A stretch of 64,000 bases of DNA from a virus, in the IMG/VR virus record IMGVR_UViG_3300042698_000029, positions 89,127-153,126 of that record. One strand, given 5' to 3'. This document shows positions 805-52,291 of this stretch, in pieces; the stretch's first letter is position 1; each line of letters opens with the position of its first letter. The notes below the pieces were generated by a model, which saw only the letters and a list, made by a program, of their open reading frames with translations, was not told the origin of the DNA and did not search any database. The translations under genes and the position numbers were made by a program.

Positions 805-2865
805 ATGCTGCACGCATCCGTACCCGCCGCCCAGTTGAATTCCGCTACCGAATACCTGGCCGCCACCGGCGGCGCGGGAGACGCCCTCCAGTGGGTCATC
901 ATCTGGGGCGCCATCCTCTGCGGAGTCCTCTACTTCGTCCGTTACCGCGACGGAGATCACGAGATCTCCGAGGACTTCGGCAAAGTGTTTCGCCGCACGG
1001 GGATGAAGAGGGGCTCCACGCCCGAGAAGGCGGAGGAGGCCCCGGAGCCTGTCGAGGAGGCCGGGCCCCTCTCGGCGGCCGACGTCGAGGCTCTCGTGGA
1101 GCGCAAGCTCGCCGAGCGGATGCCGTCGATGTCCGGTTCTGTCACGATTCCCGGCATCCCCCGTCAGCGCGCGGGGGACCAGGTTCCTCCCCCCTCCATG
1201 CCGGTGAGCTTCGAGAAGGCCCCTGAGGCCGTCCAGGAGCCGCTGCCCGTCGTAGAGGCTGCTCCCCTCCCCGCCGCCCCTGCGAAGCCCGTAGAGGCCG
1301 TCCAGGAGCCCGTCAGCGCCCCGGCGGCCGAAGCCTCTGCGCGTCCTCGTGAGCGCCTGGTCGTGCCCGAAGTGAAGAAGGCCCCCCCGGCCACAGCTGC
1401 CACATCCGCCCCTCGCATCACGCGGGAGGACGAGCCCCTGGAGGCCACCCCGGAGGAGAAGGAGCTGCTCGACAAGCTCGCGCCCCAGGTGTGGGAGAAG
1501 ATCTCCCCCACGCGCAAGCTCGGCGGGACCGTGGTGGAGAGCGCCGTCCTGACCCGGGCCGGGATCCAGGCCGTGATCAAGCTGAACGGCGACTGGACCC
1601 TGCCTAAGTTCCAGGGCCGCGAGGAGTCCGTGCGCATGCTGCTGGAGGTCCGCAAGGACGTCATGACCCGCATCACCGAGTCCGACAAGTCCGGCTGGGT
1701 GGTCCTCAGCCTGCGCACCCGCAGCGCCTGCCCGACCTTCATCCCCTGGTACCCCGGAGCCCCGCTGGGGTTCTGCACCGTGACCGGCAAGGAGATCCGG
1801 GTCGACTTCCGCAGGCACCTGGCCATTGCCGGAGCCTCCAACATGGGCAAGTCCGTGACAGCCCGGAACATCTTCGCCGAGGTGTGCTTCGACTCCGTGG
1901 CCGCCCTGATCTACTGCGACCCCAAGATGGTGGAAGGCGCGCTCTGGCGGGGCCGGGCCCGGGTGGCTCTGGACCCCGATGAGATCCACGACGTGGCCCT
2001 TGAGCTGGACGAAGAGAACACCCGGCGCAAGAACGTCATGCAGCAGCAGGGCTGGGACAAGTGGATCCCCTCCGAGGAGGCTCCCACCCTGATCGTCCCC
2101 GTGGACGAAGGCGCCTCCCTGGTGGCCGACGCCAAGGACTCCTCCCTGGAGAAGGAGGAGAAGATCATCCGCAAGAAGACCCTCTCCATCTTCGTCAAGG
2201 GGGCCCGGGAGTGGCGCTCCCAGGGCATCCACATCATCTGGATGACCCAGTACCCGACCGTGGAAGAGGGGATGCCGCAGCAGATCGGCGCCAACATCCC
2301 GGACCGGATCTCCATGGCGCTCGGCATGGAACGGCACGCCGAGGTCGTCTTCGACAAGGAGAACGTCGCCAACGGCTGGAAGGCCCACAAGCTCCCCCGC
2401 GACCCCAAGGGACTCGCCCTGGTGAAGGTGGGCGAAGAGTGCGAGCCCAACCCCGTGCAGGTCGTCTACCTGGACAAGGACCGGATCGCCGAGCTTCCGC
2501 TGTCGGGCATCTGGTACCCGTCGGGAGTCCGGTACGCCAAGGAGGTCACCGACGAGCCGGAGCCCGTGGACGAGGCCAGCATCGAGCAGGGCGAGCCGGA
2601 GGACGCCGAGCCCAAGGTTGCGGTGAACGACCAGGCCACGACCCTGATCACCCGGGACGGCGAGACGGTCCTGGTCGAGGAGCCATTCACCTCCGAGGAG
2701 AAGGTCCTGATGGCCCTGGAGATGTCCGAGACCGGTCTCATGGCCTTCGCGGACCTGATGAACGAGACGGCCATCCCCAAGCCCACCCTCTACCGGCTGC
2801 TCAACGCCATGCTGGAGAAGGGGAAGATCGCTAAGGGCGGTCACGGCGAGTGGAAGCTCCCCTGA
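805..2865 (+). CDS. traB: FtsK/SpoIIIE-family DNA translocase, TraB-like conjugative transfer protein
   Basis: N-terminal TM segment, Pro/Ala-rich linker, Walker A GASNMGKS, DPK motif, Walker B IVPVDEG, TQYP motif, C-terminal winged helix (FADLMNETAIPKPTLYRLLNAMLEKG). AAGGAG RBS. Confidence 0.85.
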   Translation: MLHASVPAAQLNSATEYLAATGGAGDALQWVIIWGAILCGVLYFVRYRDGDHEISEDFGKVFRRTGMKRGSTPEKAEEAPEPVEEAGPLSAADVEALVERKLAERMPSMSGSVTIPGIPRQRAGDQVPPPSMPVSFEKAPEAVQEPLPVVEAAPLPAAPAKPVEAVQEPVSAPAAEASARPRERLVVPEVKKAPPATAATSAPRITREDEPLEATPEEKELLDKLAPQVWEKISPTRKLGGTVVESAVLTRAGIQAVIKLNGDWTLPKFQGREESVRMLLEVRKDVMTRITESDKSGWVVLSLRTRSACPTFIPWYPGAPLGFCTVTGKEIRVDFRRHLAIAGASNMGKSVTARNIFAEVCFDSVAALIYCDPKMVEGALWRGRARVALDPDEIHDVALELDEENTRRKNVMQQQGWDKWIPSEEAPTLIVPVDEGASLVADAKDSSLEKEEKIIRKKTLSIFVKGAREWRSQGIHIIWMTQYPTVEEGMPQQIGANIPDRISMALGMERHAEVVFDKENVANGWKAHKLPRDPKGLALVKVGEECEPNPVQVVYLDKDRIAELPLSGIWYPSGVRYAKEVTDEPEPVDEASIEQGEPEDAEPKVAVNDQATTLITRDGETVLVEEPFTSEEKVLMALEMSETGLMAFADLMNETAIPKPTLYRLLNAMLEKGKIAKGGHGEWKLP

Positions 2866-13702: not shown

Positions 13703-14725
13703 TCACGACGCCAAGACCCCCACCGCCTGCCAGGCCCGCTCCACCGAGGTCTTCACCTGCGAGAAAGGCCCGAACCGTTCCGAGGCCGCCGAGACCGTCG
13801 CCGTGGCAAACGCCAGGAAACTGGACGTCGGACCCACGCGTCCCTGAAGAATGGTGTCCAGCCACACGCGGCCCGTCTGCTCCCAGGCATGACCGCCCAC
13901 CGACACCGAGGCCAGGTAGAAGGCGTGGTTCGGAATGCCGGAGTTGATGTGCACCCCGCCGTTGTCCTTCGACGTCTGGACGTACTTCGCCATCGTCGCG
14001 GGCTGCGGATCCCGGCCCAGCTTGCGGTCGTTGTACGCAGTGCCCGGGGCCTTCAGGGACCGCAGCGCCGTGCCCTGCACGGTGGAAGTGAAGATCCCCT
14101 CACCGATGAGCCAGCTGGCCTCTTCCGCCGTCTCATCCAGGGCATACTGCTCCGCGAGAACCCCGAAGACGTCCGCGAAGGACTCATTGAGCGCGCCGGA
14201 CTGGCCGTGGTACTGAAGGCCGACCGTGTTCTGGACGATTCCATGCCCGATCTCGTGAGCGACGACCGTGGAGTCCGAGAGGAATGTGTCGAAGTACACG
14301 TCGTCGCCGTCGCCGATGGCGAGGAGCTCCCCGTTCCAGAACGCGTTGGCGTAGGCCTGTCCGTAGTGAGCCACACAGGGAAGGTCAGTTCCGGCCCCGT
14401 TCACCCCCGACCAGCCATAGACGTCGTAGAGGAACTCCAGGATCTCGCCGGACATACGCCACAGCCGGTTGGCCTCCCCGTCCTCCACTTCGGGGTCCAG
14501 GTCGTCGCGGAGCATCGTGCCGGGGAGTGACCACCCCTCTTCGGCCGTCCACACGGATCGGTTGGCGGGCACCGTAGCGGCCGTCAGCAGCGGGTCGGGA
14601 GGGATCAGCGAGCGCATCGCCCGCACAGCCGCGTCTTTGCCGAAGTCCCGCCGGACTTTCAGAGCCCGCTCCGCCACAGGCAGGCGCTCGACCAGGTGGG
14701 GAGGGATGATGAAGCATTGGGTCAT
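13703..14725 (-). CDS. M4 family metalloprotease, protealysin type
   Basis: Short propeptide CFIIPPHL, NAFWNG, HEIGH zinc motif, GALNESFAD and DNGGVHINSG. Confidence 0.93.
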   Translation of the reverse strand: MTQCFIIPPHLVERLPVAERALKVRRDFGKDAAVRAMRSLIPPDPLLTAATVPANRSVWTAEEGWSLPGTMLRDDLDPEVEDGEANRLWRMSGEILEFLYDVYGWSGVNGAGTDLPCVAHYGQAYANAFWNGELLAIGDGDDVYFDTFLSDSTVVAHEIGHGIVQNTVGLQYHGQSGALNESFADVFGVLAEQYALDETAEEASWLIGEGIFTSTVQGTALRSLKAPGTAYNDRKLGRDPQPATMAKYVQTSKDNGGVHINSGIPNHAFYLASVSVGGHAWEQTGRVWLDTILQGRVGPTSSFLAFATATVSAASERFGPFSQVKTSVERAWQAVGVLAS

Positions 14726-33731: not shown

Positions 33732-33836
33732 GACTTCCTCCTCAGAAACAGGTCCGGGCGGACCTCCTGGTTAAAGGATGTCCGCCCGAGGGAAAACCCA
33801 AAAGAGTTTTGAGGAAGTTCAGAGCTTTCTTAGAAG

Positions 33837-33909
33837 TGAATCCGGTCGGACTCGAACCGACGACACGGTGGTTAAGAGCCACCTGCTCTTCCAACTGAGC
33901 TACGGATCC
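33837..33909 (-). tRNA. tRNA-Lys(CUU)
   Basis: Full cloverleaf, anticodon arm GGTGG-CTCTTAA-CCACC, T loop TTCGAGT. Confidence 0.92.
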
Positions 33910-33948
33910 GGGCGGGGACCCCGACATCACCAGTCGAGGCCCCCTTGT

Positions 33949-34022
33949 TGAAGAGAGACGGACTCGAACCGTCATCCTTCGGCACCATAGGGCCGACGCG
34001 CTACCAATTGCGCTATCTCAAA
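33949..34022 (-). ncRNA. degenerate tRNA-like RNA (8-nt anticodon loop, only 4-bp acceptor pairing)
   Basis: Intact D arm GCGC-AATTGGTA-GCGC, stem TCGGC/GCCGA with loop CCTATGGT, T arm GACGG-TTCGAGT-CCGTC. Confidence 0.7.
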
Positions 34023-34347
34023 GGGGTTCCGTTCACGGTCCTGCACAGGCGGACGGGGTTCAGCTTCAAGAGGCATGCGCTCTGCCATTGAGCCACCCGG
34101 GATCGGAGTCCCCGGGGCCGGATTCGAACCGGCATCTCACACCAGCAGACCCATCACGGTAGATCAGGACGCCGACGGTTTGTCTGAGCCTGGAGCGAGA
34201 ACATCAGCTTCAACGGGCTTTGAGATTCCCGTGAGAACTTCAGCAATCATCTTCAGTTTTCGCCCTCAGGGCGACCCGTGCGCTCAGTCACGGGAGTCTT
34301 GGAACGGTCCCAGGAGGGGTAGGGACCGTTGTGGGGATCACCTTACC
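34023..34347 (-). ncRNA. structured ncRNA containing a circularly permuted tRNA-like module (core 34072-34143)
   Basis: Order on the minus strand is GGTGTG-AGAT, T arm GCCGG-TTCGAAT-CCGGC, CCCGGGG-A-CTCCGA-TCCCGGG, TG-GCTC-AATGGCA-GAGC-G-CATGCC. Four upstream hairpins and four TGAAG motifs. Confidence 0.75.
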
Positions 34348-35088
34348 TCATGAACCGAGAAGGTGCCGGAAGATGTTCGCGCCGACGGTGACCTGTTCCA
34401 CTTCCATGGAGTTGGCCTCCTCGCGGGCACGCTTGACGGCGTCCGACATGGCGTCGATACGGGCGACGATCTCCGCTCGGCGTTCACGGGGGAGGGCACC
34501 TGAGAACTTGGTCGTCTCCCAGTAGCCCGCGTTCTTGTCCACGGAGATGACCTCGGTCTGCGCCGGGTGCTTGTCGGTCGCCGGGTACTTCACCAGGACC
34601 GACTGCTCCTTGCGGTTGCGGACGGTCTTTACCGGAGCCGTACGGAAGCCTCCGTTTTCGGCGTCCGGGGTCCACAGCTCCGCCGGGTCGAGGACCGGTG
34701 CCTTGGAGACCACGGTCCGCAGGTCGGTGAGCTGCTTCTCCAGGAAGAGCAGGTAGGGGACCGGCAGCTCGGGCGTGATGGCCTGGCCGTCCAGCACCAC
34801 AGCGGCGCGGGCGCTCATGTTCGCGGTCTCCTTGGTGGCCACCACGTCGAAGAGCTCGGTGAGATGCTTCGCGACGTCGGCCAGCATGAACTCGACGTTC
34901 TTCTGAACCAGCGTGGACTCCGGCGGCAGCTCGTCCCCACCGTCTTCGATCGGCGTGTACTTGCGGGAGAGGCCGCTGAAAAGCGGGGCCTTCTGGAGGC
35001 CGTGGTAGATCTCGGTCACCGCGTGCGAGGTGCGGGCCTGAAGACCCTTCTGTACGGCGACGATCTGACAGAGCTTCGGTGCGGTCAC
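34348..35088 (-). CDS. conserved-looking coiled-coil protein (246 aa) embedded in the tRNA array
   Basis: GAAGGA RBS + GTG at 35088. KLCQIVAV, LPVPYLLFLEKQLTDL, ATDKHPAQ, TKFSGALP and AVKRAREEAN motifs. The upstream ORF extension is a tRNA-like sequence. Confidence 0.85.
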   Translation of the reverse strand: MTAPKLCQIVAVQKGLQARTSHAVTEIYHGLQKAPLFSGLSRKYTPIEDGGDELPPESTLVQKNVEFMLADVAKHLTELFDVVATKETANMSARAAVVLDGQAITPELPVPYLLFLEKQLTDLRTVVSKAPVLDPAELWTPDAENGGFRTAPVKTVRNRKEQSVLVKYPATDKHPAQTEVISVDKNAGYWETTKFSGALPRERRAEIVARIDAMSDAVKRAREEANSMEVEQVTVGANIFRHLLGS

Positions 35089-35119
35089 AGTCAATCCTTC
35101 GGTGAGCTTGAGTCTGAAG

Positions 35120-35238
35120 TGGGAAGAGTGGGATTCGAACCCACGATTTCCGCTGACACGCAGACGTTGCCTAGGTCGACTGCATAGACGGATCAACCGG
35201 ATTTCGTCCGGCCCCATAAGCCACTCGGGCATCTTCCC
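35120..35238 (-). ncRNA. tRNA-like RNA with a 5-nt anticodon loop and ~50-nt variable arm (Ser(CGA)-derived?)
   Basis: GGGAAGA/TCTTCCC acceptor, class II-like D arm, CCGGA-CGAAA-TCCGG, T arm GTGGG-TTCGAAT-CCCAC. 119 nt. Confidence 0.75.
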
Positions 35239-35477
35239 TAGATGGTCCAGGCCCCGAAAAAGTCTTCGGGGTAGATCAGGTCGTACCAGTCCAGCGCAGC
35301 CTGTGCGTCTTGGTGATACTTCTCGGCGCCATCCAGGATGCTATCGCTGGCCTGACAGACGGCGCCTTCCCTCCAGCTGTGGGGACACGGCGTACACCAC
35401 TGTGCTCCACAGGTGAGATGGCCTTTCACTGCTTCCTTTCTCGAAGGGCCCGTTACGTGTCCCCGGTGGATGCCCAT
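35238..35477 (-). CDS. hypothetical protein
   Basis: GAAAGGA RBS before an internal GTG (VKGHLTC), Cys motifs. Confidence 0.4.
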   Translation of the reverse strand: MGIHRGHVTGPSRKEAVKGHLTCGAQWCTPCPHSWREGAVCQASDSILDGAEKYHQDAQAALDWYDLIYPEDFFGAWTI

Positions 35478-35695
35478 ACCGGGTCTGGCGAGAGCGGGGA
35501 CTACACCCTTCTTCCAGTCTTGCCTCGACTTGCAGGCAAAGGATGCATTCCCGTTGACACTACCCCTCTTAGTGATCCAGGAAGGGTCCTCCCTTGCAGC
35601 CCCGAGAGGTGTTGCGGGGTATGCAACTCATGAGGCATTCACTCCGCCGGATCGGCACCGCACCTGCCTGCCTCTCCAGCGTTCCTCGTTACCTG

Positions 35696-35862
35696 TGCCC
35701 TTGGCGGGATTCGAACCCGCGCCTGGATTTCTCCAGAGCTGAGTGTGGAAAACGCGCTTCCCTACAGACCCGGTTCGCGAGCCATTCGGTGCATCCGCAA
35801 CCTTCTCAGCACGCCGCCCCTCCGTTTTTGGGCCGCTCTGTCCCTGCCTGAGCTACAAGGGC
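35696..35862 (-). ncRNA. 167-nt tRNA-like RNA with a ~95-nt structured insertion
   Basis: GCCCTTG/CAAGGGC-A acceptor, D arm GCTC...GAGC, T arm GCGGG-TTCGAAT-CCCGC. Internal GCTGAG/CTCAGC and CTGGA-GAAA-TCCAG stems. Confidence 0.75.
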
Positions 35863-35873
35863 ATGATCCATGT

Positions 35874-36041
35874 TCAGTTGTCCGCGCTGTCCCCCAGGTA
35901 CTTCCGGGTGAGGCGCCTGCTCTTGCCGAGCTTGCGCTGTACCGCCCAGGGGTCCTTGTTCTTTCGGCCGCTTCCGGTGAGCGTGGAGTAGCCGCACATC
36001 AGGCAGCAGCCCCGCCAGCGCTTGTGGGGAGAGTGGGCCAT
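35874..36041 (-). CDS. 55-aa basic Cys-containing protein preceded by a uORF
   Basis: Manual translation MAHSPHKRWRGCCLMCGY...RKLGKSRRLTRKYL, GGAG RBS. Confidence 0.55.
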   Translation of the reverse strand: MAHSPHKRWRGCCLMCGYSTLTGSGRKNKDPWAVQRKLGKSRRLTRKYLGDSADN

Positions 36042-36075
36042 GACTGAGCTCCGTTCGAGTTTTCCCGGCCCCTCT

Positions 36076-36108
36076 TCAGGGCTGGGGTAGCTCGCGGTAC
36101 TCGTTCAT
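36076..36108 (-). promoter_or_regulatory. uORF MNEYRELPQP* (candidate leader peptide)
   Basis: GGAGG RBS, ends Pro-stop. GAGCT in the uORF can pair with AGCTC, which overlaps the downstream RBS. Confidence 0.45.
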
Positions 36109-36260
36109 CGTCCGTCCTCCGGTCTGGGTTGAAAGGTGCGGGGGCCGTATAGCCTCGGCCGCAGAAATATCTTGCATCAGGAGAGCCGCCACGCGGATCA
36201 CTGAAGTTGGCCTCCTCCTACCCGTGCAGAGTCGGCTGTCGTCTCTGCTGGCATCCGCCG

Positions 36261-36332
36261 CTCCCCTTCAAGGACTCGAACCTCAGTTTCCTGATCCAGA
36301 ATCAGGCGTCCTGCCGACTGGACGAAAGGGGA
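36261..36332 (-). tRNA. tRNA-Gln(CUG)
   Basis: Cloverleaf, CCTGA-TTCTGGA-TCAGG. Confidence 0.9.
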
Positions 36333-36356
36333 TTGAGATTATGCAATTGTACTGCG

Positions 36357-36430
36357 TAGGTGGGGTGGGATTCGAACCCACACATTGCATCCGTTATCCG
36401 GCCGTCTCTGCGCGATTGGACTACCCACCT
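36357..36430 (-). ncRNA. tRNA-like RNA with a collapsed anticodon arm (loop GATAA, Ile-derived?)
   Basis: Perfect AGGTGGG/CCCACCT acceptor and GTGGG-TTCGAAT-CCCAC T arm. Anticodon arm reduced to CCG-GATAA-CGG. Confidence 0.7.
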
Positions 36431-36511
36431 TTGCAGGCGCCTGCCGTATGGATCCCGACCAAGAGTACAGCAGGCGCCTTCACGAAACCGAAACCCGAGG
36501 GAATCGGTTGG

Positions 36512-36677
36512 TCATACGTCCTGGGCGATCTCCTCTTCGCAGCCCGCGTGCAGCCACTTCTTGAGGATCCGGTCCTCTACTTCGAAAACGTAGGGGTCCG
36601 CTACCCAGAAAACTTCTTCTTTCGCTACCCCTACCAACCCACAGTGGGAGCACTTTCGATACAGCTTGGTGTTCATG
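36512..36677 (-). CDS. small zinc-binding protein
   Basis: GGAGG RBS, CSHC...HAGC motif. Confidence 0.5.
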
Positions 36678-36723
36678 AGGTTCCCTCCGAGTGAGTGACT
36701 TTTCAATCTCTCGGACGACCTCG

Positions 36724-36797
36724 TGGCTCGGGCTGGGCTTGAACCAGCGACCTTCTCCTTATGAGGGAGCTGCTCTAACCACCTGAGCTACAGAGCC
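36724..36797 (-). tRNA. tRNA-Met/Ile2(CAU)
   Basis: Cloverleaf, CTCC-CTCATAA-GGAG. Confidence 0.88.
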
Positions 36798-36805
36798 TTG
36801 CTTCA

Positions 36806-37090
36806 TCAGACGATCTTGTGGACCATCTTCGGCATCCCGAAGGACATCGCACAGGTGGGGCCGTACTGCGTCAGCAGCTCCACCTGGGGGACGCTGCCGT
36901 TCTCGAAGGGATCGGTCCAGGTCTCCACCGGCATGCCGTTCGGATAGCCGCCGTAGTTCATGACTTCGGCGAGGGTGGCGAAAGTACCGGCCGGGACGGA
37001 GGCGGCCCACAGCGTCACCTTCTCGGTGAGATGCTTCCCCAGGTCGGGGTTGGCGGCGTAGTGAGACTTCTTGTCGACCGTGATGTGCAT
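36806..37090 (-). CDS. hypothetical protein (94 aa)
   Basis: GGGAG RBS, strong GC3 bias. Confidence 0.6.
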   Translation of the reverse strand: MHITVDKKSHYAANPDLGKHLTEKVTLWAASVPAGTFATLAEVMNYGGYPNGMPVETWTDPFENGSVPQVELLTQYGPTCAMSFGMPKMVHKIV

Positions 37091-37121
37091 GACTCCCCCT
37101 AGTTTCTCCCCGCGTGTACCG

Positions 37122-37194
37122 AGCCTCCGACAGGGTTCGAACCTGCGACACCTTCCTTACGAAGGAAGTGCTCTACCAGCTGAGCTACAGAGGC
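37122..37194 (-). tRNA. tRNA-Thr(CGU)
   Basis: Cloverleaf, CTTCC-TTCGTAA-GGAAG. Confidence 0.92.
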
Positions 37195-37280
37195 AATGTC
37201 CGGCTTTCGAGCTCTCAGGAGACCGGACGAACCTGACTAAGGTGTTACCGGGCAGTACCCGGTTACTGATCAGTACCCCG

Positions 37281-37354
37281 TACACTCGGCAGGATTCGAA
37301 CCTGCAACCTCCTGGTCCGTAGCCAGGTGCTCTATCCGATTGAGCTACGAGCGC
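37281..37354 (-). tRNA. tRNA-Arg(ACG)
   Basis: Cloverleaf, CCTGG-CTACGGA-CCAGG. Confidence 0.92.
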
Positions 37355-37502
37355 TTGACGAGGTACCGCGTCTTCCTCGGACTCACCTGCGGGAGCCACG
37401 CGGTACCTCTTGCCTGGTGTGACCCAAGGCGACCGCCGTGTCCCGCACCCCTTGACCCCCGGAGGGCTCGCCTGGTGACGGGAACTTAACGGATAGCAGG
37501 AG

Positions 37503-37576
37503 TAGGGGAGAGAGGAATTGAACCTCCGACCTCGTGATTATCAGTCACGCGCTCTTACCAACTGAGCTACACCCCT
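37503..37576 (-). tRNA. tRNA-Ile(GAU)
   Basis: Cloverleaf, CGTGA-CTGATAA-TCACG. Confidence 0.92.
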
Positions 37577-50538: not shown

Positions 50539-52116
50539 CTAGCGAGGCGTGTACTTGCCCTCTCCGTTATCCGCCAGGAGCTTGTTCTCGACCGCGTACC
50601 GGACCGTCCAGCGGGCCAGCCCGCCCTTGGCCTTCTCCTTCTCCCAGTCCCCTCCGGCGATCACGCAGCTCTCTTCCCACTCCGTCACCTCCGACTTGGT
50701 CAGCCGGTCCCGGATCTCGACCTGGGAAAGGGGCTTGAGCCTGCACTTCGCCGTGATCTTGTGCGCCACCCGGGCCACGATCTCCGGCCACGTGCCCGGC
50801 GTACCCATGGCGTCCGCGTTCTCCCGCACCCGCTCAGCACGGGACTTCCGCCCGGCCTCCTCGACCCGGCCCTCGGTTTCAACCCTGCTCTGGAAGGACG
50901 TGAGGACCTCCGCAGCGCGGTGAGTCACGGACCCGAAGCCACGCGCTACCGCCCAGTCCTCTTCGCTGATCTCGTAAGAGCACCGCATCAGGGCCGACTG
51001 CGCGGCCACCCGGTACAGGGCCAGAGTGGCGTGCGAGGCACGCGGGTCCTCCAGGGTGAGGCCACCCGACAGAGACGAGGCCAGGATCGTCAGCTCGTCC
51101 CCCATGACCTCCGGCATGGAGAGGACGACGCCCTCCTCGTCCGCCCCCACACGGACGCAAAAGTCCACCACGTCCCCGAACGAGTCCGGGAAGCCGGGAC
51201 GCTCCCTGCGGGCCTCCAGAGCCGCTGCACGGAGGCTTTCCGGGACGGCCTGGCCCCGGCTGAGCAGACGCCCCACCTCCAGCACCGCCTCGTCCTCGGA
51301 CGCGGTGACCACGGGGACGATCATGTTGCGCTGGTAGAAGCCGGTCGTGTGTCCGGCCACCTCCGCGAAGATCTCCCCCTGGTAGTAGGCGGTGATCCCC
51401 AGAACGTACTTCTGCGCCGGAACCACGCGGTGGTGTTCATCGGAGGCCGTGTCGTTGCGGATCTCGTCGCCGACGTACGCGTCCAGGAGGTTCGACTCCA
51501 GCTCCAGCGCCTGGTTACCCCGGGAGCTGGACTTGCTCATGGCGCTGAGGAGGACCGCCCCCTCGGAATAGGACAGTTCGGTCCGGGGGACGCATCCCCA
51601 CGCAAACTCCGGGGTTCCGGGCTGTGGACCCATGATGTCGTCCTCGTCCTCCGAGAGGACGATTTTCCGGAGCATGCGCGCCAGGAGGGCGGAACCGTTG
51701 GCCGGGCGCAGCGTCTGGAATCCGAAGTCGAACTCCTCCACGTCCTCGGCGGACACAAAGACCGGCAGGGATGGCTTCGCCAGCGCTGCGGGGACGGGCA
51801 TGAGCCGGTCTCGCGCCGACATGGTGGTGTTGGAGCCCGCGCCGGAGAACGCCACCAGAGCGTAGAACCCGCCGAGGTGCACTGGACTCTTCTGGGGGTT
51901 GGGCTGTCCCAGAACGCGAGGCCCCGCAAGGATCCCGGCTCGGTTGAAGCAGGCTGCGGCCAGCCCTTCCGGCTTGACGCCTACCGCATCAGCGGCTTCC
52001 TTGATCCGCGCCATGTGCGGAAGGGCCCACAACTCCTCCGGAAGACCGATGTCACGGAGCTGGAGCGCCAGGGCCGATCGCTGTTCCGGAGTCAATTTCA
52101 GTGTGGTGCTGGTCAC
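50539..52116 (-). CDS. second Rep-like protein, divergent relative of 6949-8667 (degenerate P-loop)
   Basis: ALVAFSGAGSN at the Walker A position, YYQGE and QRNM at matching positions, C-terminal wHTH. Followed by a terminator and an iteron array. Confidence 0.55.
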   Translation of the reverse strand: MTSTTLKLTPEQRSALALQLRDIGLPEELWALPHMARIKEAADAVGVKPEGLAAACFNRAGILAGPRVLGQPNPQKSPVHLGGFYALVAFSGAGSNTTMSARDRLMPVPAALAKPSLPVFVSAEDVEEFDFGFQTLRPANGSALLARMLRKIVLSEDEDDIMGPQPGTPEFAWGCVPRTELSYSEGAVLLSAMSKSSSRGNQALELESNLLDAYVGDEIRNDTASDEHHRVVPAQKYVLGITAYYQGEIFAEVAGHTTGFYQRNMIVPVVTASEDEAVLEVGRLLSRGQAVPESLRAAALEARRERPGFPDSFGDVVDFCVRVGADEEGVVLSMPEVMGDELTILASSLSGGLTLEDPRASHATLALYRVAAQSALMRCSYEISEEDWAVARGFGSVTHRAAEVLTSFQSRVETEGRVEEAGRKSRAERVRENADAMGTPGTWPEIVARVAHKITAKCRLKPLSQVEIRDRLTKSEVTEWEESCVIAGGDWEKEKAKGGLARWTVRYAVENKLLADNGEGKYTPR

Positions 52117-52291
52117 TTTTCTTCCTCTCCTGAGGAAGAGCCCTGGGTTCACCACGCCGTTATCGGGTAGAGTCGTCTCAACGAAGCGAGCTGCACTCTA
52201 TTCGTGTGATGGAGCTCCAGAGTCTTCCAGTGGGTAGCTGGCGATGACTCCTTGAAGGACCCCGGTTCCGACGCCGGGGTCCTTCACTCTT

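What the first reader, a model, noticed from the sequence alone, without database searches (positions are those of the whole stretch)
33837..37576. tRNA array in which about half the members keep the elbow but have broken anticodon arms
Seen: six canonical tRNAs (Lys, Gln, Met/Ile2, Thr, Arg, Ile) are co-oriented with five aberrant ones (33949, 34072, 35120, 35696, 36357). In all five the D and T arms are near perfect and the anticodon region is altered. Two independently have 5-nt loops (CGAAA, GAUAA) equal to anticodon+AA without the two 5' pyrimidines. Random decay would not be expected to spare the elbow each time. Established: phage tRNAs counter host anticodon nucleases. Inference: these are selected non-decoding mimics, such as uncleavable inhibitors of anticodon nucleases or modulators of RelA, T-box or synthetases.
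Basis: partly seen in the sequence, partly recalled or inferred. Interest (0 to 1): 0.72.

Follow-up and report, generated by a model that had tools for sequence, protein, structure and literature searches.

The report
Phage tRNA array with conserved tRNA mimics
Almost half of the tRNA-shaped genes in this soil phage's tRNA cluster cannot read codons, yet related phages conserve them as tightly as real tRNAs, so they are selected tRNA look-alikes of several undescribed kinds and not broken genes.

Summary
There are six canonical tRNAs (Lys, Gln, CAU-type Met/Ile2, Thr, Arg, Ile) and five co-oriented aberrant tRNA-shaped elements.

Four to six related phage contigs, reached through the embedded DUF7873 gene, carry orthologues of all five with the same odd features. 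Mean pairwise identity is 0.78-0.97. Canonical tRNAs of the same arrays score 0.79-0.90, and four-fold degenerate sites 0.50-0.68. Stems show compensatory changes. Decay is therefore refuted.

The five belong to different kinds:
- **B** is not a tRNA with a broken anticodon arm. It is the circularly permuted, YrlA/Y-RNA-like domain of a ~250-nt RNA. Such a module follows DUF7873 in 20 of 20 loci examined, and none of the three DUF7873 phages tested has Ro60.
- **D** (167 nt) belongs to an unannotated family (20 full-length members). All five other carriers tested encode Ro60; this phage does not.
- **C** and **E** have 5-nt NNNAA loops. In C the stem and AA are invariant while the triplet switches (CGA, CAC, GUC, CCU).
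- **A** is 97% conserved, with an 8-nt loop and a closed acceptor end.

The reading "selected non-decoding mimics" is supported. The nuclease-decoy mechanism is untested. This scan has noted similar phage tRNA-mimic arrays on other DNA.

The parts
37502..37576 (-). canonical tRNA-Ile (GAT)
   Evidence: ARAGORN; Rfam tRNA 72.9 bits
37280..37354 (-). canonical tRNA-Arg (ACG)
   Evidence: 68.8 bits
37121..37194 (-). canonical tRNA-Thr (CGT)
   Evidence: 65.1 bits
36723..36797 (-). canonical tRNA with CAT anticodon (Met or Ile2; not resolved)
   Evidence: 59.6 bits
36357..36430 (-). Element E: tRNA mimic with a 7-bp acceptor and a T arm, a 3-bp D-like stem whose 12-nt loop lacks GG, and a 3-bp stem capped by the 5-nt loop GAUAA
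   Evidence: Rfam 36.3 bits. Orthologues in L031, L032, L034 and L035. 96.7% of cells paired and 7 pairs with compensatory change, reached by 1 of 500 shuffles.
36260..36332 (-). canonical tRNA-Gln (CTG); absent at this position in relatives L031 and L032
35696..35862 (-). Element D: 167-nt tRNA-shaped RNA with acceptor, D arm and T arm, a hairpin with the conserved loop AAAACGGA in place of the anticodon arm, and a ~100-nt conserved multi-helix domain at the variable-region position
   Evidence: Homologues in at least four lineages of cultured Streptomyces phages, none annotated. 20 of 40 pairs compensatory. Model R1 scores it 166 bits against at most 37.7 for ordinary tRNAs.
35120..35238 (-). 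Element C: Ser-like class II tRNA mimic with an invariant CCGGA/UCCGG stem, a 5-nt loop CGAAA (NNNAA, triplet variable between relatives) and a ~50-nt variable arm with conserved apical loop CCUAGGCAA. It ends about 30 nt before the DUF7873 start codon.
   Evidence: Rfam 43.1 bits. Alignment A4. 96.5% paired and 9 compensatory pairs, reached by 0 of 500 shuffles. Further members L040, L041, L033.
34348..35088 (-). DUF7873 protein gene (246 aa), flanked by C upstream and B downstream
   Evidence: Pfam PF25283, 308 bits. AlphaFold2 model with pLDDT 90.7 shows a helical bundle plus a long beta hairpin, with no convincing PDB match.
34040..34299 (-). B RNA: conserved ~250-nt structured RNA downstream of DUF7873. 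Its 3' domain is the permuted tRNA-like module. The outer ends of the RNA are approximate.
   Evidence: Five-phage alignment and consensus fold A7; mean identity 0.86
34079..34136 (-). Element B core: T arm, closed acceptor hairpin, D arm (circularly permuted tRNA-like domain, YrlA-like)
   Evidence: Rfam YrlA 30.5 bits, model positions 28-81. The same module lies downstream of DUF7873 in 20 of 20 loci.
33941..34026 (-). Element A: tRNA mimic with D and T arms intact, an 8-nt anticodon-position loop CCUAUGGU (it may fold as a 7-bp bulged stem with a triloop), and only 4 acceptor pairs extended by an outer CCCCUU/AAGGGG helix
   Evidence: Orthologues in L031, L032 and L034 with 97% mean column identity.
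33836..33909 (-). canonical tRNA-Lys (CTT)
   Evidence: 64.9 bits

Best explanation
The stretch is a phage operon of tRNAs mixed with tRNA mimics. Six members are ordinary decoders. The other five are non-decoding, tRNA-shaped RNAs of at least four separate families, kept by purifying selection. In this phage lineage the mimics are the constant core of the array, while the canonical tRNAs come and go. Shown: B is the tRNA-like 3' domain of a ~250-nt RNA encoded directly after the DUF7873 gene, and this gene-RNA pairing is general. Shown: D belongs to a conserved family of tRNA-shaped RNAs that elsewhere travels with phage Ro60. Inferred: the mimics keep the acceptor, D and T parts so that host RNase P, RNase Z and tRNA-binding proteins process and recognise them, and the anticodon end is rebuilt into a protein- or RNA-docking surface. 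B, and probably C and A which flank the same gene, would work with DUF7873 as a Ro60-independent, Y-RNA-like ribonucleoprotein. Such a particle would act on tRNA or structured-RNA surveillance, or on counter-defence, during infection. The mimics would not take part in decoding.
For: All tRNA-type matches in the complete 153-kb phage record lie in this array. Relatives were found through DUF7873 homologues of 66-86% identity. Their arrays are syntenic with the window, and all five elements have orthologues. Mean pairwise identities are A 0.97, B 0.86, C 0.85, D 0.85, E 0.78. Canonical tRNAs score 0.79-0.90, and four-fold degenerate sites of DUF7873 score 0.50-0.68. Covariation: C has 9 pairs with compensatory change, reached by 0 of 500 shuffles, against at most 3 for slid controls. 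E has 7 such pairs, reached by 1 of 500 shuffles. D has 20 of 40 such pairs. The non-canonical features themselves are conserved. These are C's stem and the AA of its loop, D's AAAACGGA loop, and A's mismatched acceptor top with the outer helix. The set of canonical tRNAs differs between relatives. A permuted module with a 6-7 of 7 bp closed acceptor lies 65-430 nt after the DUF7873 stop in 20 of 20 loci. These come from actinophages, cyanophages, Rhizobium, Vibrio, Ralstonia and Klebsiella phages and from Streptomyces chromosomes. Sub-threshold YrlA matches lie at the same spot. All five other D-carrying phages tested have a TROVE/Ro60 gene and none has DUF7873. All three DUF7873 phages tested lack TROVE. 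Arthrobacter phage Atuin has Ro60 followed by permuted modules, while its array-syntenic relative Mimi has DUF7873 followed by permuted modules.
Against: There are no expression, processing or binding data. Binding of DUF7873 to any of these RNAs rests on gene order alone. The DUF7873 fold gives no functional hint. B reaches only 30.5 bits against Rfam's 69-bit threshold for YrlA. This phage carries D but no Ro60, so D's partner here is unknown. C was not found next to more distant DUF7873 genes, so any link between C and DUF7873 is lineage-specific. The comparative sample for A, C and E is small (4-7 sequences from one phage group).
Confidence: 0.72

Rival explanations
1. C and E (and perhaps A) would be decoys or uncleavable competitive inhibitors of host anticodon nucleases or other anticodon-reading defence proteins. 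They would present an anticodon-like triplet plus A37-A38 on an otherwise authentic tRNA body, but lack positions 32-33 and so lack the normal cleavage context.
For: In C the 5-bp stem and the two A residues are invariant in 7 independent sequences, while the triplet switches between CGA, CAC, GUC and CCU. Column 34 shows all four bases. E has the same NNNAA format, GAUAA in four phages and CUAAA in one. Host nucleases that target phage and host tRNA anticodon loops, and phage tRNAs that escape them, are established (PMC10264068, PMC11555353, PMC12409363).
Against: Nothing here tests nuclease binding. CCU recurs in three lineages, including the most distant, so the triplet is not simply saturated. 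With three columns, a rate above neutral cannot be shown. B and D have no anticodon-like triplet. No decoy tRNA of this design appears in the tRNA-evasion paper whose text I searched for decoy and tRNA-like.
Confidence: 0.22
2. The mimics would be cis-acting processing and regulatory elements rather than trans-acting RNAs. As tRNA-shaped punctuation they would let RNase P and RNase Z cut the polycistronic transcript. C, which ends about 30 nt before the DUF7873 start codon, would be an operator or 5'-end-defining element for that mRNA.
For: C abuts the DUF7873 ribosome-binding site in all relatives. Small protein genes are interleaved with the RNAs. No promoter-like or terminator-like sites were found inside the array, which fits one long transcript.
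Against: Punctuation needs only an acceptor and a T arm. It does not explain D's invariant 100-nt core, C's conserved variable-arm loop, or A's closed acceptor, which should hinder RNase P. D-family RNAs occur in other phages between ordinary tRNAs with no adjacent protein gene.
Confidence: 0.15
3. Some members would still decode in an unusual way. A, with its 8-nt loop, would act as a four-base (UAUG) or frameshift-suppressor tRNA. C would be read with a 4-bp stem and a 7-nt loop, giving anticodons GAA, ACA, UCA or CUA.
For: A's loop has 8 nt. Earlier notes of this scan report four-base xAUG anticodons in other phage arrays (not checked here). Under the 7-nt reading, two C variants would carry stop-codon anticodons.
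Against: A's first three acceptor pairs are mismatched in all four phages, and its ends are locked in an outer helix. A's loop can close into two more C-G pairs that leave a triloop, and the two loop positions that vary are unpaired in that fold. C never has U33, and its A-U closing pair is invariant. No Pth2-like gene is present.
Confidence: 0.05
4. The aberrant members would be decaying tRNA pseudogenes.
For: Phage tRNA arrays turn over quickly, and the canonical set does differ between relatives. The elements were recognised through their intact T arms, which biases the sample.
Against: Conservation equals or exceeds that of canonical tRNAs and lies far above four-fold degenerate sites. Compensatory changes occur in acceptor, T and extra-arm helices. 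The same odd features recur in every relative.
Confidence: 0.02

Closest known systems
YrlA-type bacterial and phage Y RNAs (Rfam RF02553; Chen et al. 2014, PMC4201824; structure preprint 10.1101/312249)
   Same: B has the defining topology. A T arm is followed by an acceptor-like stem closed by a loop, then by a D arm. The 5' and 3' sequences form a long stem where the anticodon stem would be. Like YrlA it has no free CCA end.
   Different: YrlA was defined by adjacency to Ro60/Rsr. This phage has no Ro60. B instead follows DUF7873, a 246-aa protein of unrelated predicted fold, and that pairing holds in 20 of 20 loci. B scores 30.5 bits against a 69-bit threshold and is preceded by about 150 nt of further conserved structure.
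Ro60-associated RNAs of phages (genes annotated 'Ro-like RNA binding protein' in Streptomyces, Gordonia and Arthrobacter phages)
   Same: All five other D-carrying phages tested encode a TROVE protein. The cultured Streptomyces phages with this Ro-like protein are nearly the same set as those with a D homologue.
   Different: D is not permuted. It has free acceptor ends, a D stem and a large insertion at the variable-region position. It matches no Rfam family and is unannotated in every GenBank record seen. In this phage it occurs without Ro60.
Phage T4 small stable RNAs RNAC and RNAD from the tRNA gene region
   Same: They are small RNAs co-encoded with phage tRNAs whose biological role is unknown (PMC3014915).
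   Different: No sequence or structural relationship was tested. T4 has two such RNAs beside eight tRNAs (from memory). Here the mimics nearly equal the tRNAs in number and fall into at least four families.
Phage tRNAs with anticodon-loop substitutions that escape tRNA-targeting defences (PMC10264068, PMC11555353)
   Same: They are phage-encoded, tRNA-bodied, and altered specifically in the anticodon loop.
   Different: Those tRNAs keep a 7-nt loop and still decode. C and E have 5-nt loops without positions 32-33, A has an 8-nt or closed loop, and none of the three can decode normally.
Frameshift-suppressor tRNAs with 8-nt anticodon loops (sufD, SufB2 type; from memory)
   Same: A has an 8-nt loop on a 5-bp stem.
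   Different: A lacks a paired acceptor end (3 of 7 pairs mismatched, conserved across relatives) and lacks U33.

Membership tests
Canonical tRNA (Rfam RF00005) | 5-bp anticodon stem with a 7-nt loop (U33, three-base anticodon, purine 37) | tested here: not met
   A has an 8-nt loop, C and E have 5-nt loops, D has a 10-nt loop on a 4-bp stem, and B has no loop because its ends lie there. The six canonical members meet the feature.
Canonical tRNA (Rfam RF00005) | 7-bp acceptor stem with free 5' and 3' ends, plus D and T arms in the order 5'-D-anticodon-T-3' | tested here: inconclusive
   C, D and E meet it, with 100% of acceptor and T cells paired. A has only 4 acceptor pairs. B is permuted.
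YrlA / Y RNA-like (Rfam RF02553) | Permuted tRNA-like domain: T arm, closed acceptor stem, D arm | tested here: met
   B matches model positions 28-81. The consensus fold across five phages agrees, as does the motif scan.
YrlA / Y RNA-like (Rfam RF02553) | Score at or above the Rfam gathering threshold (69 bits) | tested here: not met
   30.5 bits in the window, and 25.8-49.6 bits in homologous positions of other DUF7873 loci.
YrlA / Y RNA-like (Rfam RF02553) | Encoded next to a Ro60/Rsr (TROVE) gene | tested here: not met
   No TROVE match in the complete phage record by Pfam model or by tblastn with two phage Ro proteins.
YrlA / Y RNA-like (Rfam RF02553) | Ro60-binding helix formed by the RNA's 5' and 3' ends | not testable with these tools
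   A long terminal stem is predicted, but binding cannot be judged from sequence.
D family (model R1 built here) | tRNA frame, a hairpin with loop AAAACGGA, and the conserved core ending in GGGUCUGUAGGGAAGCGCG | tested here: met
   166 bits. There are 21 full-length hits of 64.9 bits or more over 21 loci, which is 20 distinct RNAs because L022 and L027 are identical; ordinary tRNAs reach at most 37.7. The window sequence was part of the seed alignment.
tmRNA (RF00023) | tRNA-Ala-like domain with G3:U70 and no D stem, a tag reading frame, and pseudoknots | tested here: not met
   ARAGORN finds no tmRNA. D has C3-G70 and a 4-bp D stem, and no reading frame is conserved across its homologues.
tRNA interrupted by a group I intron | Intron of about 200 nt or more in the anticodon loop, with a group I core | tested here: not met
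   The inserts are about 100 nt (D) and 50 nt (C). They lie after the anticodon-position hairpin. No intron family matched.
DUF7873 (Pfam PF25283) | Full-length match above the curated cut-off | tested here: met
   308.1 bits against a cut-off of 27, profile positions 2-242 of 244.

The most novel reading that the evidence does not exclude
DUF7873 and its obligatory permuted tRNA-like RNA would form a widespread Y-RNA-type ribonucleoprotein that is independent of Ro60 and takes Ro60's place in phages and some bacteria. In this lineage it would have recruited extra tRNA mimics (C, E) whose 5-nt NNNAA loop displays an exchangeable anticodon triplet. That triplet would be retargeted between lineages to titrate or mislead host proteins that read particular anticodons, such as anticodon nucleases.
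Probability: 0.2. Interest if true: 0.9.

Novelty: new variant of a known kind. Interest (0 to 1): 0.78.

Why it matters
Phage tRNA genes are now read mainly as replacements for host tRNAs destroyed by defence nucleases. This array shows that, in one lineage, the stable core of the tRNA cluster is a set of RNAs that only look like tRNAs.

Three testable leads follow:
- A protein family of unknown function (DUF7873, thousands of members) is always followed by a permuted tRNA-like RNA. In the phages tested here its presence excluded Ro60. This offers a second route into the still unexplained role of the tRNA-like domain of bacterial Y RNAs.
- An unannotated RNA family (D) is present in many sequenced Streptomyces phages.
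- A tRNA body carries a 5-nt loop with a switching triplet, which is a simple design that can be tested directly against tRNA-targeting defences.

The work also shows that routine phage annotation misses a whole class of genes.

Tried and rejected
- **Whole-phage relatives in IMG/VR.** Searches with two other proteins (36806-37090 and 50539-52155) gave nothing. One distant locus came from DUF7873.
- **BLAST of A, C and E against cultured phages.** It returned only generic tRNA similarity.
- **Model R2 for C.** It found no C-type RNA next to distant DUF7873 genes.
- **Known partners or explanations.** The phage has no Ro60, no RtcB and no Pth2. ARAGORN called no tmRNA, and no intron family matched.
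- **DUF7873 protein.** PHROGs gave no family. PDB sequence search gave nothing. Foldseek gave nothing at E <= 0.001. VIA-align's best hit was Z 8.6 to a designed helical protein, within the noise for helical models. The ESM Atlas gave only unnamed clusters at 0.81.
- **Pseudoknot in D.** A pairing between loop AAAACG and CGUU(U/A)U in the core is possible. All the loop bases are invariant and the one varying partner base is uncompensated, so the pairing is neither supported nor refuted.
- **Promoter and terminator scan.** It was uninformative: 0 and 1 sites, at or below shuffled expectation.
- **Weak YrlA hits at junctions of adjacent ordinary tRNAs**. These are the known dimeric-tRNA artefact and were not counted.
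- **Complex prediction.** None was run, because the tool takes no RNA.

Full report
**Setting.** The window is the last 64 kb of a complete 153,126-bp IMG/VR phage record with direct terminal repeats. It has 64% G+C and tail-fibre genes. All nine Rfam tRNA-type matches of the whole genome lie between 33.8 and 37.6 kb of the window, on the minus strand.

**The observation.** ARAGORN and Rfam agree on six canonical tRNAs: Lys-CTT, Gln-CTG, CAT, Thr-CGT, Arg-ACG and Ile-GAT, scoring 57-73 bits.
- A (33949-34022) has good D and T arms and a 5-bp stem with an 8-nt loop, CCUAUGGU. Only four acceptor pairs form, and an outer CCCCUU/AAGGGG helix extends them.
- B (34079-34136) runs T arm, closed acceptor hairpin, D arm. 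It is a circularly permuted tRNA-like domain. Its best Rfam match is YrlA (Y RNA-like), model positions 28-81, at 30.5 bits.
- C (35120-35238) resembles a class II tRNA-Ser(CGA). Its stem is CCGGA/UCCGG, its loop is CGAAA, and its variable arm is about 50 nt.
- D (35696-35862, 167 nt) has a perfect acceptor, D arm and T arm around about 110 nt of other structure.
- E (36357-36430) has perfect acceptor and T stems, a 3-bp D-like stem, and a 3-bp stem capped by GAUAA.

B is permuted rather than broken, and E's D arm is not near perfect.

**Finding true relatives.** The only sizeable gene inside the array, 34348-35088, is a full-length DUF7873 (PF25283, 308 bits). Whole-phage relatives could not be found through other proteins. 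DUF7873 homologues of 66-86% identity led to related contigs: L031, L032, L034, L035, L040 and L041. Their arrays are syntenic with the window. They share the 137-aa gene upstream and the epimerase and methyltransferase genes downstream.

**The decisive comparison.**
- Every aberrant element has orthologues with the same peculiarities.
- Mean pairwise identity is A 0.97, B RNA 0.86, C 0.85, D 0.85, E 0.78.
- Orthologous canonical tRNAs in the same arrays score 0.79-0.90. Four-fold degenerate sites of the DUF7873 gene score 0.50-0.68.
- For C, 96.5% of cells pair and 9 pairs show compensatory change. No shuffle out of 500 reaches this, and slid controls give at most 3.
- For E, 96.7% of cells pair and 7 pairs are compensatory, reached by 1 of 500 shuffles.
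- A is almost invariant, including its mismatched acceptor top and outer helix.
- The canonical complement differs between relatives: Ala, Phe, Tyr, Asn, Leu and Gln come and go. The five mimics are constant.

**C and E share a loop format.** In seven independent C sequences the stem CCGGA/UCCGG and the last two loop bases (AA) never change. The first three loop bases are CGA (twice), CAC, GUC and CCU (three times). E has GAUAA in four phages. In L031 a different arm ends in CUAAA. In C the triplet switches between lineages whose remaining sequence differs by only 3-5%. Three columns cannot prove a rate above neutral, and CCU recurs, so I treat this as a lead.

**B and DUF7873.**
- The ~330 nt between the DUF7873 stop codon and A are conserved in five phages. 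They fold into several hairpins followed by the permuted tRNA-like domain, which is closed by a long terminal stem.
- I examined 20 DUF7873 loci. They come from Arthrobacter, Gordonia, Rhodococcus, Pseudanabaena, Microcoleus, Rhizobium, Vibrio, Ralstonia and Klebsiella phages, from metagenomic contigs and from Streptomyces chromosomes.
- All 20 have one or two permuted modules 65-430 nt after the stop codon, with the acceptor strands complementary at 6-7 of 7 positions.
- In the annotated phage records this space is an unannotated gap.
- Rfam gives sub-threshold YrlA matches at the same place (25.8-49.6 bits).
- YrlA RNAs were defined as neighbours of Ro60 (PMC4201824). This phage has no Ro60, and neither do two other DUF7873 phages.
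- Arthrobacter phage Atuin has Ro60 inside its tRNA array, followed by permuted modules. Its array-syntenic relative Mimi lacks Ro60 and has DUF7873 followed by permuted modules.
- The AlphaFold2 model of DUF7873 is confident (pLDDT 90.7). It shows a helical bundle with a long beta hairpin and resembles nothing solved.
- That DUF7873 binds the RNA is an inference from gene order.

**D is a member of a real family.**
- BLAST found full-length, unannotated homologues inside the tRNA arrays of at least four lineages of cultured Streptomyces phages. These are Kela/JustBecause, GiJojo/Alone3/pSt2308/LuckySocke, the Francob/Comrade group and the Quantum/Kradal group.
- A pattern scan added eight IMG/VR contigs.
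- In a seven-sequence alignment, 20 of 40 predicted pairs show compensatory change.
- Covariance model R1 separates 21 full-length hits on 21 loci (64.9 bits or more) from ordinary tRNAs (37.7 or less). They are 20 distinct RNAs, since L022 and L027 are the same sequence. L040 adds a divergent hit of 48.7 bits.
- The anticodon-position hairpin has a covarying 4-bp stem and the invariant loop AAAACGGA. The insert holds long invariant stretches.
- No Rfam family matches.
All five other D-carrying phages have a TROVE gene and none has DUF7873.
- The list of cultured Streptomyces phages with this Ro-like protein nearly coincides with the list carrying D.
- This phage is the exception: it has D without Ro60 but with DUF7873.

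**What it most likely does.**
- Shown: five conserved, structured, tRNA-shaped RNAs cannot decode in the normal way. Two of them belong to families tied to specific proteins.
- Inferred: they use the tRNA frame for processing, stability and recognition, and they carry a rebuilt anticodon end as a docking surface. B (with C and A nearby) would work with DUF7873 as a Y-RNA-like particle acting on tRNA or structured-RNA surveillance, or on counter-defence.
- The nuclease-decoy idea remains a live rival for C and E because of the switching triplet.
- Rivals I rate lower are cis-acting processing or operator roles, residual unusual decoding by A, and decay. The last is excluded.

**Known relatives and novelty.**
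- The nearest described things are YrlA-type Y RNAs, phage Ro60 systems, T4's unexplained RNAC and RNAD (PMC3014915) and anticodon-loop variant phage tRNAs (PMC10264068).
- None of these covers a DUF7873-linked permuted RNA, the D family, or 5-nt NNNAA mimics.
- A full-text search for DUF7873 found no paper. The search for YrlA together with phage returned only the known Ro60-linked work.
- Other windows of this scan have reported comparable phage tRNA-mimic arrays, linked to Pth2 or to Ro60. Those are unchecked notes, not support.
- I class the finding as a new variant of a known kind (tRNA mimics and Y-RNA-like RNAs). Interest is high because it is directly testable.

Noticed in passing
window 36132-36260 (minus strand): A 129-nt stretch between tRNA-Gln and the 55-aa gene is 93-94% identical to L031 and L032, and 85% identical over 88 nt to Streptomyces phage JustBecause. 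That is more conserved than the neighbouring coding DNA. It overlaps a 41-aa ORF (36076-36201) and is followed by a 10-codon ORF (MNEYRELPQP). It may be a further non-coding RNA or a leader.
   Followed up: partly
L014:1482-1650, L013:4027-4195 (minus), L015:1484-1637, L016:1484-1638, L017:1471-1624, L018:1483-1714, L019:1484-1637: D-family RNAs lie in unannotated gaps of the tRNA arrays of GenBank Streptomyces phages Kela, JustBecause, GiJojo, Alone3, Francob, Quantum and pSt2308. In LuckySocke a 'hypothetical protein' is annotated over the match.
   Followed up: yes
L003:1063-1591 (Gordonia phage Phendrix): A full-length tmRNA match (89 bits, gathering score 47) lies in an unannotated gap between tRNA-Asn and tRNA-Arg of the Phendrix tRNA array.
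   Followed up: no
L030:5940-6290 (Arthrobacter phage Atuin): Two to three permuted tRNA-like modules lie in the unannotated gap after the Ro-like gene and tRNA-Thr. The related phage Mimi instead carries DUF7873 with permuted modules at the end of a syntenic tRNA array. Ro60 and DUF7873 were mutually exclusive in every phage tested (8 records).
   Followed up: partly
L015:1380-1483, L016 and L019 at the same position: About 100-165 nt directly upstream of the D-family RNA are conserved among GiJojo, Alone3 and pSt2308 and are unannotated. This may be another structured RNA.
   Followed up: no
L036 and L042 (Streptomyces chromosomal contigs): DUF7873 with downstream permuted modules also occurs on large bacterial contigs, next to Mrr-type nuclease, DNA-ligase-fragment and endonuclease VII genes. 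These may be prophages or defence islands.
   Followed up: no
window 805-2865 and 13703-14725: The phage encodes an FtsK/SpoIIIE-family protein with a C-terminal helix-turn-helix (686 aa) and a thermolysin-type M4 peptidase (340 aa). Both are unusual cargo for a phage.
   Followed up: no
L012:3928-4007 (Klebsiella phage vB_KpM_FBKp24): An annotated 'tRNA-Sup-TTA' lies about 100 nt after the permuted module that follows DUF7873. It may belong to the same mimic cluster rather than being a suppressor tRNA.
   Followed up: no
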